Shown here: piece after piece, positions 58,400-64,000 of the stretch
Numbering within the stretch: position 1 is the first letter of the stretch
Layout: each line of letters opens with the position of its first letter
Assembly: GCA_039026375.1 (NCBI GenBank)
Contig: JBCCML010000005.1
Location: 66,906-130,905, forward strand
DNA: 64,000 nucleotides
Reading direction: 5' to 3'
Origin: Pseudomonadota bacterium
GTDB lineage: Bacteria; Pseudomonadota; Alphaproteobacteria; Rhodobacterales; Rhodobacteraceae
Made by a program: the position numbers and the translations under genes
The notes under the pieces: model-generated
Seen by the model: only the letters and a program-made list of their open reading frames with translations
Told to the model about the DNA's origin: nothing
The model's database searches: none

Positions 58400-59266
58400 T
58401 TACGCGATGCTCTGATTGATGGCATCTGCGATCAGCGCATCGAATTCTGTCGGCGTTGACACCTTTGCTACATCGGCTGCCGAAACGGTGACGCCCCAGT
58501 TCTCGGCTATTGCATCGTACCGCGGCAGCCGCCGCGTCAGAAGTTGCCGGAAACCCCACCGAATGAAGTCGTCCGGGTCGACCCGATGATCCGGCACCCC
58601 ATGTGCGTTGCGATAACCCATCCAGGACGCCTTCAGAAACTCCTCAGGGTAATACATGGGCTTTGGTGCACGATCGAACCGTGCAGCCAACTCGTCCGCA
58701 TCCGCTTCCGTGCCGCGGATCTGGACCAACAGGACATGGCGCGTCAACTCGGTCAACACAGGGTCTTTTTCGTCGTCGGCCTCCACGACCTCGCACAAAG
58801 ATCCAGACGTGTCGCACAGAAAATGCGGGTACCCGTAAAGATCTTTGGCGCGCGCAACGAACGGGATGGCGTCCAGGGTCGCGGCAATCTCGGCGCTGCG
58901 ATGCTGGCGTTGACGCTCCAGGTAGGCGTCAAAGGGGATACCGCCTTTATCGGGGTCGCCCGGCTTGCCCAGATAGGTCGACAGCGGCGCGAGATTTTCG
59001 AATGTCAGGTTTGACGTGATGTAGACAGAGTCTGACATTAGCAGCTCTCGCAGGAAAGGCACCTGCATCGCCGCGCGCTTGAAGTTATCGGCAATGTGCT
59101 CGCCCATGTACCGCGTGCCGATACGGTAATCGACGGAGTAGTGGAACCACTCGCCCCCCTCACGCAGCATCGACGCAATGCGGGTTTTTCCCGTTCCAGA
59201 CATGCCGAAAAGCGCCACGGCCTTGCGGGGCGCTTTCAGATACGCATCAGCAGTCTGGTAGATCAT
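58400..59266 (-). CDS. Uncharacterised P-loop ATPase
   Basis: FGMSGTGKT, WFHYSVDYRIGTRYMGE, LGKPG...KGG, CDTSGSLCEV, PKPMYY. Confidence 0.85.
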   Translation of the reverse strand: MIYQTADAYLKAPRKAVALFGMSGTGKTRIASMLREGGEWFHYSVDYRIGTRYMGEHIADNFKRAAMQVPFLRELLMSDSVYITSNLTFENLAPLSTYLGKPGDPDKGGIPFDAYLERQRQHRSAEIAATLDAIPFVARAKDLYGYPHFLCDTSGSLCEVVEADDEKDPVLTELTRHVLLVQIRGTEADADELAARFDRAPKPMYYPEEFLKASWMGYRNAHGVPDHRVDPDDFIRWGFRQLLTRRLPRYDAIAENWGVTVSAADVAKVSTPTEFDALIADAINQSIA

Positions 59267-59362
59267 GGGAATCCCTCGAAGTTGCCTCCGCTTACGCACG
59301 AATGCCGGATTTGCCAAGCGCTGCCTTCCTGTGAGATGCTGCCGGCAAAAGGGAGATCGCCA

Positions 59363-59599
59363 ATGTCAGACGCAGAGAAGCACACGCCCGACACGCTGGC
59401 GGATGCCGAGATGGATGACGTGCAGGGTGGTGTCGGCGCAAACCGGACCGTGACGATCGGTGCGAACCAGACCGAGACGACACGGGTGTCTGCGACCGCG
59501 CCGCCGGCCGATCCCATTCCGGTGCCGTATCCCAACATCGACAGCAAGCCGTCGCAGGGTGTGACGACATCGCGGTTCAAACTCACGCGGGGCCGGTGA
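59363..59599 (+). CDS. 78-aa peptide with a double-glycine leader (RiPP/bacteriocin-precursor-like)
   Basis: RBS GGGAG 7 nt before ATG; leader MSDAEKHTPDTLADAEMDDVQGG; the track gives this only as the tail of a longer ORF. Confidence 0.75.
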   Translation: MSDAEKHTPDTLADAEMDDVQGGVGANRTVTIGANQTETTRVSATAPPADPIPVPYPNIDSKPSQGVTTSRFKLTRGR

Positions 59600-59624
59600 G
59601 AATGCCGGCTCGGAGGATGCATGT

Positions 59625-60599
59625 ATGACCACGGTCAAGACATCGTCGAAGCACATCGTGACCCCGGCAGAGGTCCGCCCCCTGGCGCAGCGGTCTGACT
59701 GGATGGGCGCCGCCTTGGTCGCGCATGCCTGGGGTGTGATCTTCGGCGCGGTGGCATTGTTCGCTTGGTGGCCGTCTTTGGTCACCGGGTTATTGGCCGT
59801 GATGGTCATCGGCTCGCGCCAACTGGGGTTGGCCGTTCTGATGCACGAGGCCGCGCACAAGGCGCTGTTCCGCACCGGTTGGATCAACGAGGTCGTCGGA
59901 CAATGGCTATGCGCGCGCCCGGTTCTGGCGGAGATGACGTCCTATCGCGCGTACCACATGGTCCACCACATCCACACGCAAACGGACAAGGATCCGGATC
60001 TTGCGCTGTCTGCAAAGTTCCCGACCACCCGTGACAGCCTGAAACGCAAGTTCACCCGGGACTTGACGGGCCAAACCGGCTGGAAGCTGCGCTTGGCTCA
60101 GTTCCGTCGTGCGCTGCAACTCGGCTTTGATGAAGATGCGATCTCTGGTGCGAAGATGGCTCAGACGTTTCAGTCCGAGGATTTGAAACCCGGCATTCTT
60201 TGCAACATCCTTGTGTTCGCAATCATGTGGGCAATCGGTGACTGGTGGTACTGGTTTGCCTTTTGGGCCTTGCCACTGCTGACCTGGTATCAGTTCGTCA
60301 TCCGCATCCGAAACATCGCCGAGCATGCCGTGCTGACGGCGCCGCAGGAACCACTGGGCAATGCGCGCACGACCTATGCCGACCCGATCACGGCGTTCTT
60401 TCTGGCGCCGTACTGGGTGAACTATCACTTGGAGCATCACCTGGTGATGCATGTGCCCTGCTGGCGCCTGTCTAAGGTGCACCGTCTGTTGCAGGAAAAG
60501 GGGTACGCCGAGCGGATGGAGACAGCACCCAGTTATTGGCGGGTTCTCAGCATGGTGGGTTGGCAGCAGCTAAGCCCAGAGCGTGCCGGTGCCGGGTGA
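59625..60599 (+). CDS. Membrane-bound fatty acid desaturase family protein
   Basis: Three His boxes HEAAH, HMVHH, HLEHH; RNIAEH; TM segments. Confidence 0.9.
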   Translation: MTTVKTSSKHIVTPAEVRPLAQRSDWMGAALVAHAWGVIFGAVALFAWWPSLVTGLLAVMVIGSRQLGLAVLMHEAAHKALFRTGWINEVVGQWLCARPVLAEMTSYRAYHMVHHIHTQTDKDPDLALSAKFPTTRDSLKRKFTRDLTGQTGWKLRLAQFRRALQLGFDEDAISGAKMAQTFQSEDLKPGILCNILVFAIMWAIGDWWYWFAFWALPLLTWYQFVIRIRNIAEHAVLTAPQEPLGNARTTYADPITAFFLAPYWVNYHLEHHLVMHVPCWRLSKVHRLLQEKGYAERMETAPSYWRVLSMVGWQQLSPERAGAG

Positions 60600-62534: not shown

Positions 62535-62672
62535 GGGGCGTCTCCTGTGGTGTTTCTTGAGCGCGCTCTTACTGTGCCGACGCCCATGTTGCAACGCACA
62601 ATAAACGTGCTTTCGTGACAGATCTCGACCGCTTTGCCATAGTCGCTGCAGGGATTGGTTAATGGGGCGGGG

Positions 62673-64000
62673 ATGTCCGACGGGCGCGTCTTCATCAGTT
62701 ACAGGCGTGGGGTAGACAGTGCGTTCGCAGGACGTCTGCATGATCGGTTGGAGCGGCACTTTTCGCGCGACCAGCTTTTCATGGATGTCGACTCGATCCC
62801 GTTGAGTCGCGATTTCGTCGACCATCTGGATGAGCAGGTGGGCAAATGCAGCGTCTTCCTGGCGATAATTGGTCCCGGCTGGTTAGACGCGCGCGGTAGG
62901 CTGGAAGACCCGGACGATTTCGTGCGGATCGAGATTGAATGCGCGTTGCGCAGGCCAGACATCCCGATCATTCCTGTCTTTGTTGAAGACGTTGTGCTGC
63001 CCGAAAGCGATAACTTGCCCGCAAGTTTGGCGCCCCTGACCCGGCGCAACGGCATCGTCGTCTCACATCACAGTTTTGCAGCCGTAGTGGATAACAAGCT
63101 GACCACCGCGTTGACTGCATTGATGCCAGCTGGAGCCAGTGCGGGGCAGCGGGACGCCGTCCGCTCGGACGACGGATTGGACCTGGAGGCGCTGGTTGAA
63201 AGATCTGATGGCACGGCAGCGTCTTTGCCGTCTGCCTTCGAAAGCACAACGGCTGAACTACCCGGGCGCCAAGCCACGCCAGCAACCCCTGCCAACACGC
63301 AGGACACACCGGCCCGACCTGGCAACCAACGAAAGGGATTGATCGCCGCTGTGGCTGTGTGCGGACTAATCGCCCTCGGCGTGGGCGCCTTTCTAGCCCT
63401 TCCTTTAACGAAACCAGCGCTTGATGACCCTATCGAAGCAGATCAAAGCGCACAGGACCTCGTAAGACTTGCGCTGAACGGCGGGGATGCTGTTGCAGGA
63501 CGCGCCGCATACCGTGCCTGTGTCGGATGCCACAACGCCTGGATGCCCCAGCAGGGCGTTGGCCCAAACCTGGTCGGCATCGTTGGGCGACAGATTGCGT
63601 CGATCCCGCAGCTTTTCCGATATTCTGATGCAATGCTGGCGTTGGAGGGCGTCTGGACGCCCGAAGCGCTGAATGCCTACCTCGCCAATCCGAAGGAGTG
63701 GTTGCCCGGCACCCGCATGCTTTACCGTGGCATGCCTGACCCGGTTGACCGCGCGAATCTGATCGCATTTCTTGCGACAACCGGCGTGGTGCCAGGATCT
63801 GATGCCGAGGCATTGGATGAACCAGTTTCTGGCGAGCCCGTTCAGGTGGTTCTGGGGTTTAAGGTCATCGAAGAGGAGGCGCGCGCCGAATGGGCACGTC
63901 TGCGCAAGGCCCTGGCCATTCAGCTTCGTGACAAGGTTGGTCGCATCGTCCAAACCCGCTGGGGCTACAGCGTCCGGGCCGAACCATTTCCGAACGAAAA
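62673..64000 (+). CDS. TIR - transmembrane - cytochrome c - SPOR-like fusion protein (3' end outside window)
   Basis: Hand-translated, open for 442 codons to the window end: VFISYRR...FMDVD...[11 protein letters not shown] (TIR); [21 protein letters not shown] (TM); CVGCH, GPNL.GI.GR, YSDAM, PGTRM (class I cytochrome c); ARAEWARL...YSVRAEPF (SPOR-like). Confidence 0.88.

What the first reader, a model, noticed from the sequence alone, without database searches (positions are those of the whole stretch)
59363..60599. Double-glycine-leader peptide directly upstream of a membrane di-iron desaturase: candidate new RiPP-type system
Seen: the leader TLADAEMDDVQGG has L at -12, E at -8, M at -7, V at -4 and GG at -2/-1. 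Established: this is the consensus read by C39 peptidase ABC transporters (bacteriocin, Nif11 and NHLP leaders). The 55-aa core (VGANRTVTIGANQTETTRVSATAPPADPIPVPYPNIDSKPSQGVTTSRFKLTRGR) has 9 Thr, 4 Ser, no Cys and a basic tail. The desaturase starts 25 nt after the stop, same strand. I know of no RiPP class matured by a His-box membrane desaturase/hydroxylase, and no LanM, YcaO, rSAM or PCAT gene is in the window. Inference: either a new peptide-modifying oxidation chemistry or an orphan secreted peptide exported in trans.
Basis: partly seen in the sequence, partly recalled or inferred. Interest (0 to 1): 0.8.

Follow-up and report, generated by a model that had tools for sequence, protein, structure and literature searches.

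The report
Exported leader peptide beside unrelated desaturase
The small gene is real and carries a genuine export-and-cleavage tag, but it is one of about 40 scattered genes of that kind served by a single export pump elsewhere in the genome, and its position next to the desaturase is almost certainly an accident, not a new peptide-modifying pathway.

Summary
A 78-codon ORF (59363-59599, +) with a textbook double-glycine leader lies 25 nt upstream of a His-box FA_desaturase gene (59625-60599).

The headline reading, a RiPP matured by the desaturase, is not supported.
- Six desaturase orthologue loci read directly have no such ORF upstream.
- Five genomes of the genus have the desaturase but no leader peptide anywhere.
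- Four genomes have the peptides but no desaturase.
- The peptide's closest relative in another species sits between aminotransferase genes.

- The genome, a Limibaculum-like Rhodobacterales MAG, holds about 39 dispersed paralogues. They share the leader (..P..L.D..LD.A.GG) and have strong ribosome-binding sites.
- Their cores are hypervariable, almost free of cysteine, hydrophilic and often repetitive.
- One complete NHLP-type export operon lies on another contig: HlyD, a C39-peptidase ABC transporter with its catalytic Cys and His, a second ABC protein and a cNMP-binding protein.
- Across 51 genomes of the genus, peptide family and exporter co-occur perfectly (12/12 against 0/39). None of 300 other genomes of the order has the leader.

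One loose end remains. Several cores resemble short pieces of contractile-injection parts (PAAR-like, gp5/VgrG repeat, Hcp).

Verdict: a new lineage-specific member of a known kind.

The parts
59349..59355 (+). Shine-Dalgarno AAGGGAG, 7 nt before the ATG of the peptide gene
   Evidence: Read from the sequence. Conserved in the related MAG. Nearly all 39 paralogues have a similar AGGAG/GGAGG at this distance.
59363..59431 (+). Double-glycine leader, 23 aa: MSDAEKHTPDTLADAEMDDVQGG. Predicted cleavage is after GG.
   Evidence: Leader HMM 18.0 bits against 9.3 bits at most in the reversed control. Profile A3 gives 29.6 bits, E 5.8e-6. Cleavage itself is inferred, not shown.
59432..59599 (+). Core peptide, 55 aa plus stop: Cys-free, basic (pI 10.9), hydrophilic. 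The unmodified core would weigh 5790.06 Da (monoisotopic).
   Evidence: It is 86% identical to its only orthologue P0002, with dN/dS 0.25.
59432..59479 (+). Imperfect repeat GANRTVTI/GANQTETT (residues 24-39), resembling the gp5/VgrG C-terminal beta-helix repeat
   Evidence: Pfam Gp5_C E 8.9e-4, 19.7 bits, just under the cut-off of 20.4. It is shared with the paralogue on C48 (BLASTP E 3e-8 including the leader).
59486..59566 (+). SATAPPADPIPVPYPNIDSKPSQGVTT (residues 42-68), resembling profile positions 9-35 of the PAAR-like domain
   Evidence: Pfam Tox-PAAR-like 13.8 bits, E 0.063, not significant on its own. The reciprocal-best homologue in genome G005 scores 32.2 bits, above the cut-off of 31, at E 1.2e-7.
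59590..59611 (+). Short GC hairpin across the stop codon, with no U-tract
   Evidence: Fold is not better than shuffles (z -0.6) and no terminator-like site was found. Co-transcription with the desaturase is therefore likely; this is an inference.
59625..60599 (+). Membrane di-iron His-box enzyme of 324 aa (FA_desaturase superfamily; motifs HEAAH, HMVHH, HLEHH). Substrate unknown. A neighbour of the peptide system, not part of it.
   Evidence: PF00487 132 bits. The best NCBIfam hit is the GntB arginine hydroxylase at 120.7 bits against a cut-off of 380, so it is not a member. 497 relatives were found, mostly in Rhodobacterales. It is 97% identical in the related MAG, with dN/dS 0.08.
58400..59266 (-). 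Divergently transcribed P-loop protein (288 aa from ATG 59266; Walker A GMSGTGKT). This is the neighbour of the desaturase that is actually conserved within the genus.
   Evidence: The same divergent pair occurs in G042, G019, G030 and G005. No Pfam or PDB match beyond the P-loop.

Best explanation
The 78-codon gene encodes a precursor with a 23-residue double-glycine leader. It is one of about 39 dispersed paralogues in this Limibaculum-like genome. After translation, the leader is recognised by the C39 peptidase domain of the single NHLP-type ABC exporter on another contig. That operon comprises HlyD, ABC1 with the peptidase domain, ABC2 and a cNMP-binding protein. The leader is cut after GG, and the 55-residue, probably unmodified, basic core (VGANR...) is pumped out of the cell. 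The gene was inserted, in this species only, into the divergent intergenic region between a P-loop gene and a widespread fatty-acid-desaturase-family gene. It is probably co-transcribed with the desaturase, but the desaturase does not act on it.

Shown: the gene, the family, the exporter with its catalytic residues, and the co-occurrence. Inferred: cleavage, export and lack of modification. The extracellular role of the peptide (bacteriocin-like, signalling or other) is unknown.
For: The gene is real: Shine-Dalgarno site, conserved ORF and start codon, dN/dS 0.25, 14 of 25 differences at third codon positions.

Family: about 39 ORFs score at least 8 bits with the leader HMM, against one hit of 9.3 bits in the reversed control. 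Nearly all have an ATG with a strong Shine-Dalgarno site. Their cores hold 3 Cys in 2018 residues and every core has negative GRAVY. Seven cores carry exact internal repeats.

Exporter on G000:C4: TIGR03794 278 bits (cut-off 156), TIGR03796 918 bits (cut-off 853), TIGR03797 682 bits (cut-off 709), plus a cNMP-binding protein. The best PDB match is PCAT1 4ry2 (E 2e-96), with the catalytic Cys (AECGAASL) and His (FNHFLVV) aligned. No NHLP or Nif11 precursors exist in the genome, so this family is the only candidate cargo found.

Phyletic profile over 51 genomes of the genus: the leader family (9-34 copies) is present in exactly the 11 genomes with TIGR03796 above its cut-off. One further incomplete genome has 4 copies and a PCAT truncated at a contig end. 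The other 39 genomes have neither. Fisher P is 6e-12.

The peptide clusters on C6 lie among housekeeping genes (D-lactate dehydrogenase, LepA, Sir2), with no tailoring enzymes.
Against: The curated GG-leader models do not reach their cut-offs: there is no hit for this peptide, and TIGR01847 scores 13.9 against 15.7 for a paralogue. The exporter is not adjacent. The cores are hydrophilic and basic, unlike typical membrane-active class II bacteriocins, and no immunity gene was identified.

Two coincidences involve His-box enzymes. A different GG peptide lies next to the desaturase orthologue in G042, and an AlkB-type gene lies next to the PCAT operon in G000. The latter was shown to be specific to G000.
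Confidence: 0.75

Rival explanations
1. New RiPP class: the His-box desaturase/hydroxylase oxidises Thr, Ser, Pro or other residues of the core before export.
For: The two genes are 25 nt apart on the same strand with no terminator between them. The desaturase's best curated match is GntB, a member of this superfamily annotated as hydroxylating a free amino acid, not a lipid. A second GG peptide lies beside the orthologue in G042.
Against: Six orthologous or related desaturase loci read directly have no GG ORF upstream. A low-sensitivity leader pattern found none in 80 further loci. Five genomes have the desaturase but no leader peptide or PCAT at all, and four have peptides and PCAT but no desaturase. 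The closest homologue of this very peptide, in G005, lies between aminotransferase genes on another contig. The other 38 or so paralogues share the leader but lie at unrelated loci. The GntB score is 120.7 against a cut-off of 380. The G042 peptide is convergent, on the other side of the gene, and has an unrelated core.
Confidence: 0.03
2. Decaying or non-functional ORF: a leader cassette fused to a scrap of a spike/PAAR gene, or a chance ORF in GC-rich DNA, that is not made into a useful product.
For: Only one orthologue exists among 5.8 billion and 1.84 billion proteins searched. The core evolves faster than its neighbours (86% against 97% amino-acid identity). The core contains only fragments of the domains it resembles.
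Against: It has a strong Shine-Dalgarno site and a conserved start and stop. dN/dS is 0.25 with an excess of third-position changes. Its leader scores seventh highest of the family. Fast-evolving cores are the norm for such cargo families.
Confidence: 0.08
3. Regulatory upstream ORF: translation of the small ORF controls expression of the desaturase, and the leader resemblance is incidental.
For: It lies in the 5' region of the desaturase with a 25-nt gap, and a small hairpin spans the stop codon.
Against: The hairpin is no better than shuffled sequence (z -0.6). The ORF belongs to a 39-member family found at unrelated loci and tied phyletically to a PCAT. Desaturase orthologues do without it.
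Confidence: 0.04

Closest known systems
Precursor families served by the three-gene NHLP/N11P exporter (TIGR03794/03796/03797; Haft, Basu and Mitchell 2010, PMC2887384)
   Same: The same exporter families are present: two are above their curated cut-offs and the third is just below. Precursors occur in large paralogous numbers per genome and can lie far from the transporter. The link between precursors and exporter was likewise found by phylogenetic profiling.
   Different: The leader is 19-43 aa (mostly 21-23), of the classical short GG type, and is not related to nitrile hydratase or Nif11. The cores are almost Cys-free, and no cyclodehydratase or LanM was seen near the clusters examined, so the product is probably unmodified.
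Class II microcins and class II bacteriocins (GG-leader peptides exported by PCAT + MFP, such as CvaAB/ColV; PMC12219008)
   Same: A short double-glycine leader with hydrophobic residues at -4, -7 and -12, a ribosomal peptide under 10 kDa, and a PCAT plus HlyD-type adaptor.
   Different: The precursor is not encoded beside its exporter. No immunity gene was identified. The cores are hydrophilic and mostly basic. There are about 39 copies per genome instead of one or a few. Antibacterial activity is untested.
Prochlorosins (many dispersed Nif11-leader precursors, one remote processing and export system)
   Same: The genome architecture is the same: a conserved leader, hypervariable cores, dozens of scattered genes and shared machinery in trans (general knowledge; PMC2887384).
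   Different: There is no lanthionine synthetase logic, since the cores have 3 Cys in 2018 residues. The leader is unrelated, and the host is an alphaproteobacterium.
PCAT1 and its cargo CtA from Clostridium thermocellum (PDB 4ry2; PMC6959990)
   Same: PCAT1 is the best solved-structure match of the exporter's ABC1 protein over its full length, with the catalytic Cys and His conserved. Its cargo is an unmodified GG-leader polypeptide.
   Different: This is a Gram-negative system with a HlyD adaptor, a second ABC protein and a cNMP-binding partner, and it serves many cargos.
PAAR-like domain (Pfam PF13665, DUF4150), gp5/VgrG C-terminal repeat (PF06715) and Hcp (PF05638)
   Same: Short stretches of some cores match these profiles. 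The G005 homologue matches PAAR-like at 32.2 bits (cut-off 31). This peptide matches Gp5_C at E 8.9e-4. The only two PDB hits of a G005 neighbour peptide are both Hcp proteins.
   Different: Only about a third of each domain is present, after an export leader. These are not spike or tube proteins. The genome has no canonical VgrG.

Membership tests
Double-glycine-leader cargo of a peptidase-containing ABC transporter | N-terminal leader of about 15-30 aa ending in GG (or GA/GS), with hydrophobic residues at -4, -7 and -12 and an acidic residue near -8 | tested here: met
   Read from the sequence. Leader HMM 18.0 bits against a reversed-control maximum of 9.3. Profile A3 E 5.8e-6.
Double-glycine-leader cargo of a peptidase-containing ABC transporter | Match to a curated GG-leader model (TIGR01847, PF10439) above its cut-off | tested here: not met
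   No NCBIfam hit for this peptide. A paralogue scores 13.9 against 15.7 on TIGR01847. PF10439 reaches only E 0.018 in one paralogue. These models are very short and this lineage's leader is divergent.
Double-glycine-leader cargo of a peptidase-containing ABC transporter | A PCAT with a catalytically competent C39 domain, plus an adaptor, in the same genome | tested here: met
   Peptidase_C39 123.8 bits. TIGR03796 918 bits against a cut-off of 853, and TIGR03794 278 bits against 156. Cys and His align with those of PCAT1.
Double-glycine-leader cargo of a peptidase-containing ABC transporter | Cargo and exporter are co-inherited | tested here: met
   12 of 12 against 0 of 39 genomes of the genus; Fisher P 6e-12.
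Double-glycine-leader cargo of a peptidase-containing ABC transporter | Leader cleaved after GG and core found outside the cell | not testable with these tools
   Needs peptidomics or an in vitro cleavage assay.
RiPP matured by the adjacent His-box desaturase | Precursor and tailoring enzyme are linked across genomes | tested here: not met
   Searches show orthologues without the peptide, peptides without the desaturase, and the homologous peptide at another locus. A low-sensitivity pattern scan of 80 loci agrees.
RiPP matured by the adjacent His-box desaturase | Mass shift of the core that depends on the enzyme | not testable with these tools
   The unmodified core is predicted at 5790.06 Da monoisotopic.
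NHLP (TIGR03793) / Nif11-type (TIGR03798) precursors | Long leader homologous to the nitrile hydratase alpha subunit or to Nif11 | tested here: not met
   The leader is 23 aa and has no NCBIfam hit. Genome-wide, only a nitrile-hydratase-like frame scores 40.9 against 50.9 for TIGR03793, and there is no Nif11-leader hit.
Class II microcin | Dedicated immunity gene next to the structural gene, and antibacterial activity | not tested
   No small membrane ORF was identified as an immunity gene. Immediately downstream lies the conserved desaturase; upstream lies a divergently transcribed P-loop gene. Activity needs an assay.
PAAR-like domain protein (PF13665) | Full domain of about 108 positions above the gathering score of 31 bits | tested here: not met
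   13.8 bits, covering profile positions 9-35 only.
FA_desaturase superfamily (the neighbouring gene) | PF00487 above its cut-off, with three His boxes | tested here: met
   132 bits against a cut-off of 29.7. HEAAH, HMVHH and HLEHH can be read in the translation.
GntB L-arginine gamma-hydroxylase (NF041365), for the neighbouring gene | Equivalog score of at least 380 bits | tested here: not met
   120.7 bits.

The most novel reading that the evidence does not exclude
A sub-clade of Limibaculum-like bacteria exports a library of 10-40 short peptides. Some of them are miniature copies of the contact strands of contractile-injection parts: the Hcp end strands, the gp5/VgrG beta-helix repeat and the PAAR-like N-terminus. 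The peptide in this window joins a VgrG-tip-like repeat to a PAAR-like N-terminus. These peptides could be secreted decoys or inhibitors that interfere with spike or tube assembly, or with docking, of competitors' type VI systems, tailocins or phage tails. That would be a new kind of anti-injection defence, or a new microcin target.
Probability: 0.06. Interest if true: 0.85.

Novelty: new member of a known kind. Interest (0 to 1): 0.35.

Why it matters
The result removes a tempting false lead, a desaturase-made RiPP. It replaces that lead with a clean example of a lineage-restricted peptide secretome: a single NHLP-type exporter with no NHLP or Nif11 cargo, serving dozens of short-leader, nearly Cys-free, repeat-rich peptides in marine Rhodobacterales. 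The peptide family and the exporter are inherited together without exception in the sample. This shows that the exporter family is not confined to RiPP precursors. It also offers a compact system of one pump and about 39 cargos for studying cargo recognition by peptidase-containing transporters. The resemblance of some cores to injection-machine parts is unexplained and worth a targeted test.

Tried and rejected
- **Relic of a VgrG/PAAR gene of this genome.** Rejected. The genome has only a phage-like spike/PAAR pair on C11 whose sequences are unrelated to the core, and no canonical VgrG.
- **AlkB-type His-box gene upstream of the PCAT operon as a hint of a di-iron/peptide link.** Rejected. 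The adjacency exists in G000 only. The gene is on other contigs in 7 PCAT-positive genomes and is present in 8 PCAT-negative ones.
- **Shared promoter motif upstream of the paralogues.** No enriched 8-mer was found.
- **Insertion boundaries.** The divergent intergenic region was aligned with those of G030 and G019 to define the boundaries, but the sequences are too diverged.
- **Exhaustive phmmer of the peptide against 1.84 billion representatives.** The only true homologue is P0002. The other four hits are summed weak matches to highly repetitive proteins and are artefacts.
- **PDB searches.** Searches with the window core and with a C6-cluster core found nothing meaningful. A recalled identity of the 'WSWGMSQ' start of the C6 cores to an Hcp motif could not be confirmed and is not used.
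- **DNA pattern for the leader across 80 desaturase loci.** Negative, but the pattern caught only 3 of 10 known leaders in L041, so it is weak on its own.
Full report
**Observation.** The ORF at 59363-59599 (+) reads MSDAEKHTPDTLADAEMDDVQGG followed by a 55-residue core. The core has 9 Thr, 4 Ser and no Cys, and its pI is 10.9. Twenty-five nucleotides after the stop, a 324-codon gene starts at 59625. It is a clear PF00487 FA_desaturase (132 bits) with three His boxes. No terminator-like site lies between the two genes. The hairpin across the stop codon is no better than shuffled sequence.

**Is the small ORF a gene?** AAGGGAG sits 7 nt before the ATG. The 5.8-billion-protein collection holds exactly one homologue, P0002, at 86% identity. 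It comes from a related MAG in a fully syntenic locus.
- In that MAG a 1-nt indel puts the upstream in-frame ATG out of frame, so 59363 is the conserved start.
- Of 25 nucleotide differences, 14 are at third codon positions (binomial P 0.016).
- dN/dS is 0.25, against 0.08 for the desaturase.

The ORF is under coding constraint but evolves fast: 86% amino-acid identity against 97% for its neighbour.

**It is one of a large family.** A regex scan and then a 14-residue leader HMM, run over all 88,738 stop-to-stop frames of the window's genome, found about 39 small ORFs with the leader pattern ..P..L.D..LD.A.GG. The genome (G000) is 4.76 Mb, 97% complete, and the window is C5:66906-130905.
- Family scores run from 8 to 21 bits. 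The reversed-sequence control has a single hit at 9.3 bits.
- Thirty-seven of the 39 start with ATG, and nearly all have a strong Shine-Dalgarno site.
- Leaders are mostly 21-23 aa and cores 19-81 aa.
- The cores are unrelated to each other apart from small subfamilies. They hold 3 Cys in 2018 residues, are rich in Gly, Thr, Ala and Lys, and every one has negative GRAVY.
- Twenty-eight of the 36 cores scored have Lys or Arg among the last four residues, and seven carry exact internal repeats.
- The genes are scattered over at least 20 contigs. There are tandem clusters on C3 (6 genes) and C6 (6 and 4 genes). The C6 clusters lie among housekeeping genes (D-lactate dehydrogenase, LepA, Sir2), with no tailoring enzyme.

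**The exporter.** The genome has one Peptidase_C39 gene, on contig C4. It sits in a same-strand operon of four genes:
- a HlyD-type adaptor (TIGR03794, 278 bits against a cut-off of 156);
- a peptidase/permease/ATPase (TIGR03796, 918 bits against 853);
- a second permease/ATPase (TIGR03797, 682 bits against 709);
- a cNMP-binding protein.

This is the three-gene NHLP/N11P exporter of Haft et al. 2010 (PMC2887384). Its best solved relative is PCAT1, aligned over the full length, with the catalytic Cys and His conserved. The genome has no NHLP or Nif11 precursor. The short-leader family is therefore the only candidate cargo found.

**Phyletic test.** A 21-residue leader profile (A3) was searched in 51 genomes of the genus.
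- Eleven genomes hold 9-34 copies, one incomplete genome holds 4, and 38 hold none. One further genome has a single weak match inside a 413-aa frame.
- TIGR03796 above its cut-off occurs in exactly those eleven genomes. The incomplete genome has a PCAT truncated by a contig end, followed by the ABC2 gene.
- Co-occurrence is thus 12/12 against 0/39, Fisher P 6e-12.
- In 300 other genomes of the order, from 112 genera, the profile finds nothing at E<=0.001. It finds 29 matches in G000 at that threshold.

The family is real, lineage-restricted and inherited together with the exporter.

**The desaturase link.** Orthologues occur in only 11 of the 48 other genomes of the genus that were searched.
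- In the four closest loci (73-76% identity), the conserved partner is the divergently transcribed P-loop gene (window 58400-59266, -). The gap between the two is 115-243 nt, or holds other unrelated ORFs, and never a GG-leader ORF.
- A search with the peptide in 13 desaturase-bearing genomes found no match near the desaturase.
- The desaturase has 497 relatives, mostly in Rhodobacterales (Sedimentitalea, Sagittula, Ruegeria, Phaeobacter and others). Two loci read directly have hemC or a membrane-protein gene upstream.
- A low-sensitivity DNA pattern for the leader found no hit upstream on the desaturase strand in 80 loci.
- Five genomes (G013, G015, G019, G029, G038) have the desaturase but neither peptides nor PCAT. 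Four (G023, G031, G043, G081) have peptides and PCAT but no desaturase.
- The reciprocal-best homologue of this peptide, in G005, lies on another contig between a MocR-type regulator gene and a class IV aminotransferase gene.

What the desaturase acts on remains unknown. Its best curated match is the GntB arginine hydroxylase, but at 120.7 bits against a cut-off of 380. No solved structure matches it by sequence.

**Two coincidences were checked.**
- An AlkB-type His-box gene (PF00487, 114.5 bits) lies directly upstream of the HlyD gene in G000. In seven other PCAT-positive genomes it is on a different contig. It is also present in eight PCAT-negative genomes. The adjacency is therefore accidental.
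- In G042 a different GG-leader gene lies convergent to the desaturase orthologue, 75 nt from its stop. With about 18 such genes in 3.2 Mb this is unlikely by chance, roughly 4% over the six independent genomes. The core is unrelated, the side and orientation differ, and this intergenic neighbourhood is variable in several genomes. I treat it as unexplained and probably chance.

**Nature of the core.**
- Pfam gives weak hits to Gp5_C (E 8.9e-4, residues 24-39) and to Tox-PAAR-like (E 0.063, residues 42-68).
- The G005 homologue passes the PAAR-like gathering score (32.2 bits against 31, E 1.2e-7, profile positions 3-35).
- The only two PDB hits of its tandem neighbour are both Hcp proteins. 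The N- and C-terminal strands align collinearly, and Pfam T6SS_HCP gives E 0.031.
- A G000 paralogue on C48 shares the IGANQT repeat and weakly hits Gp5_trimer_C.
- Of 11 weak Pfam hits among 44 family members, five are to spike or tube families. This is far more than chance.

G000 has no canonical VgrG. It does have a phage-like contractile-injection locus on C11 with sheath, gp5-like spike, PAAR and gp25 genes, but those sequences are not the source of the core. So some cores are derived from, or mimic, short segments of injection-machine proteins. Why is unknown. I list a decoy function as the most novel reading, at low probability.

**Comparison with known systems and novelty.** The architecture is that of the precursor families served by the NHLP/N11P exporter, and of the prochlorosins: a conserved leader, hypervariable cores, many dispersed genes and one machine in trans. 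The leader chemistry is that of class II microcins and bacteriocins. The differences are a short leader unrelated to NHLP or Nif11, nearly Cys-free hydrophilic cores that are often repetitive, no tailoring enzymes found, and restriction to part of one Rhodobacterales genus. Earlier notes of this scan describe analogous dispersed GG-leader families in other phyla, so the kind is recurrent. This is a new member of a known kind. The specific claim that made the finding attractive does not hold.

**Limits.** Cleavage, export and lack of modification are inferences.

Noticed in passing
window 58400-59266 (-): A 288-aa P-loop protein (Walker A GMSGTGKT) with no Pfam or PDB match beyond the P-loop. 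It is the conserved, divergently transcribed partner of the desaturase in at least five genomes of the genus. The pair may be a functional unit of unknown role.
   Followed up: partly
window 62655-63998 (+, runs off the window end): A protein with an N-terminal TIR_2 domain (46 bits), followed by a hydrophobic stretch and a CxxCH motif (CVGCHN). This may be a TIR-cytochrome c fusion.
   Followed up: no
G000:C4:99015-100145 (L010 12013-13149, -): An AlkB-type His-box hydroxylase (HELVHQ, EHVHGHH, NYVEHYGL, LQRHSDHH; PF00487 114.5 bits) lies about 110 nt upstream of the HlyD gene of the PCAT operon, on the same strand. The adjacency exists in this genome only.
   Followed up: yes
G000:C11:35500-50000 (L130): A contractile-injection or phage-tail-like locus with sheath, putative tube, gp5-like spike (Phage_base_V), PAAR, gp25 and large baseplate-like genes. 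Whether it is an eCIS, a tailocin or a prophage tail was not determined.
   Followed up: partly
L027 476-757 (+) (G042:C12): A different GG-leader gene (MNKSSKTKAAEVSDTELDRINGG|AENAGYGY...) lies convergent to the desaturase orthologue, 75 nt from its stop. This is a second peptide-desaturase adjacency with a different geometry and is unexplained.
   Followed up: partly
L125 1496-1990 (G005:C22): A tandem pair of GG-leader genes whose cores look like a mini-Hcp (N- and C-terminal strands) and like the first third of a PAAR-like domain. The second has AAAAG instead of GG at the predicted cleavage site.
   Followed up: partly
G000:C6:112163-114362 and C47:535-828: A subfamily of four GG-leader peptides with longer leaders (35-38 aa) whose cores end in a shared FLRVRPGR(I/F)G..(F)GG motif. 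This is the only subfamily with a conserved C-terminus.
   Followed up: no
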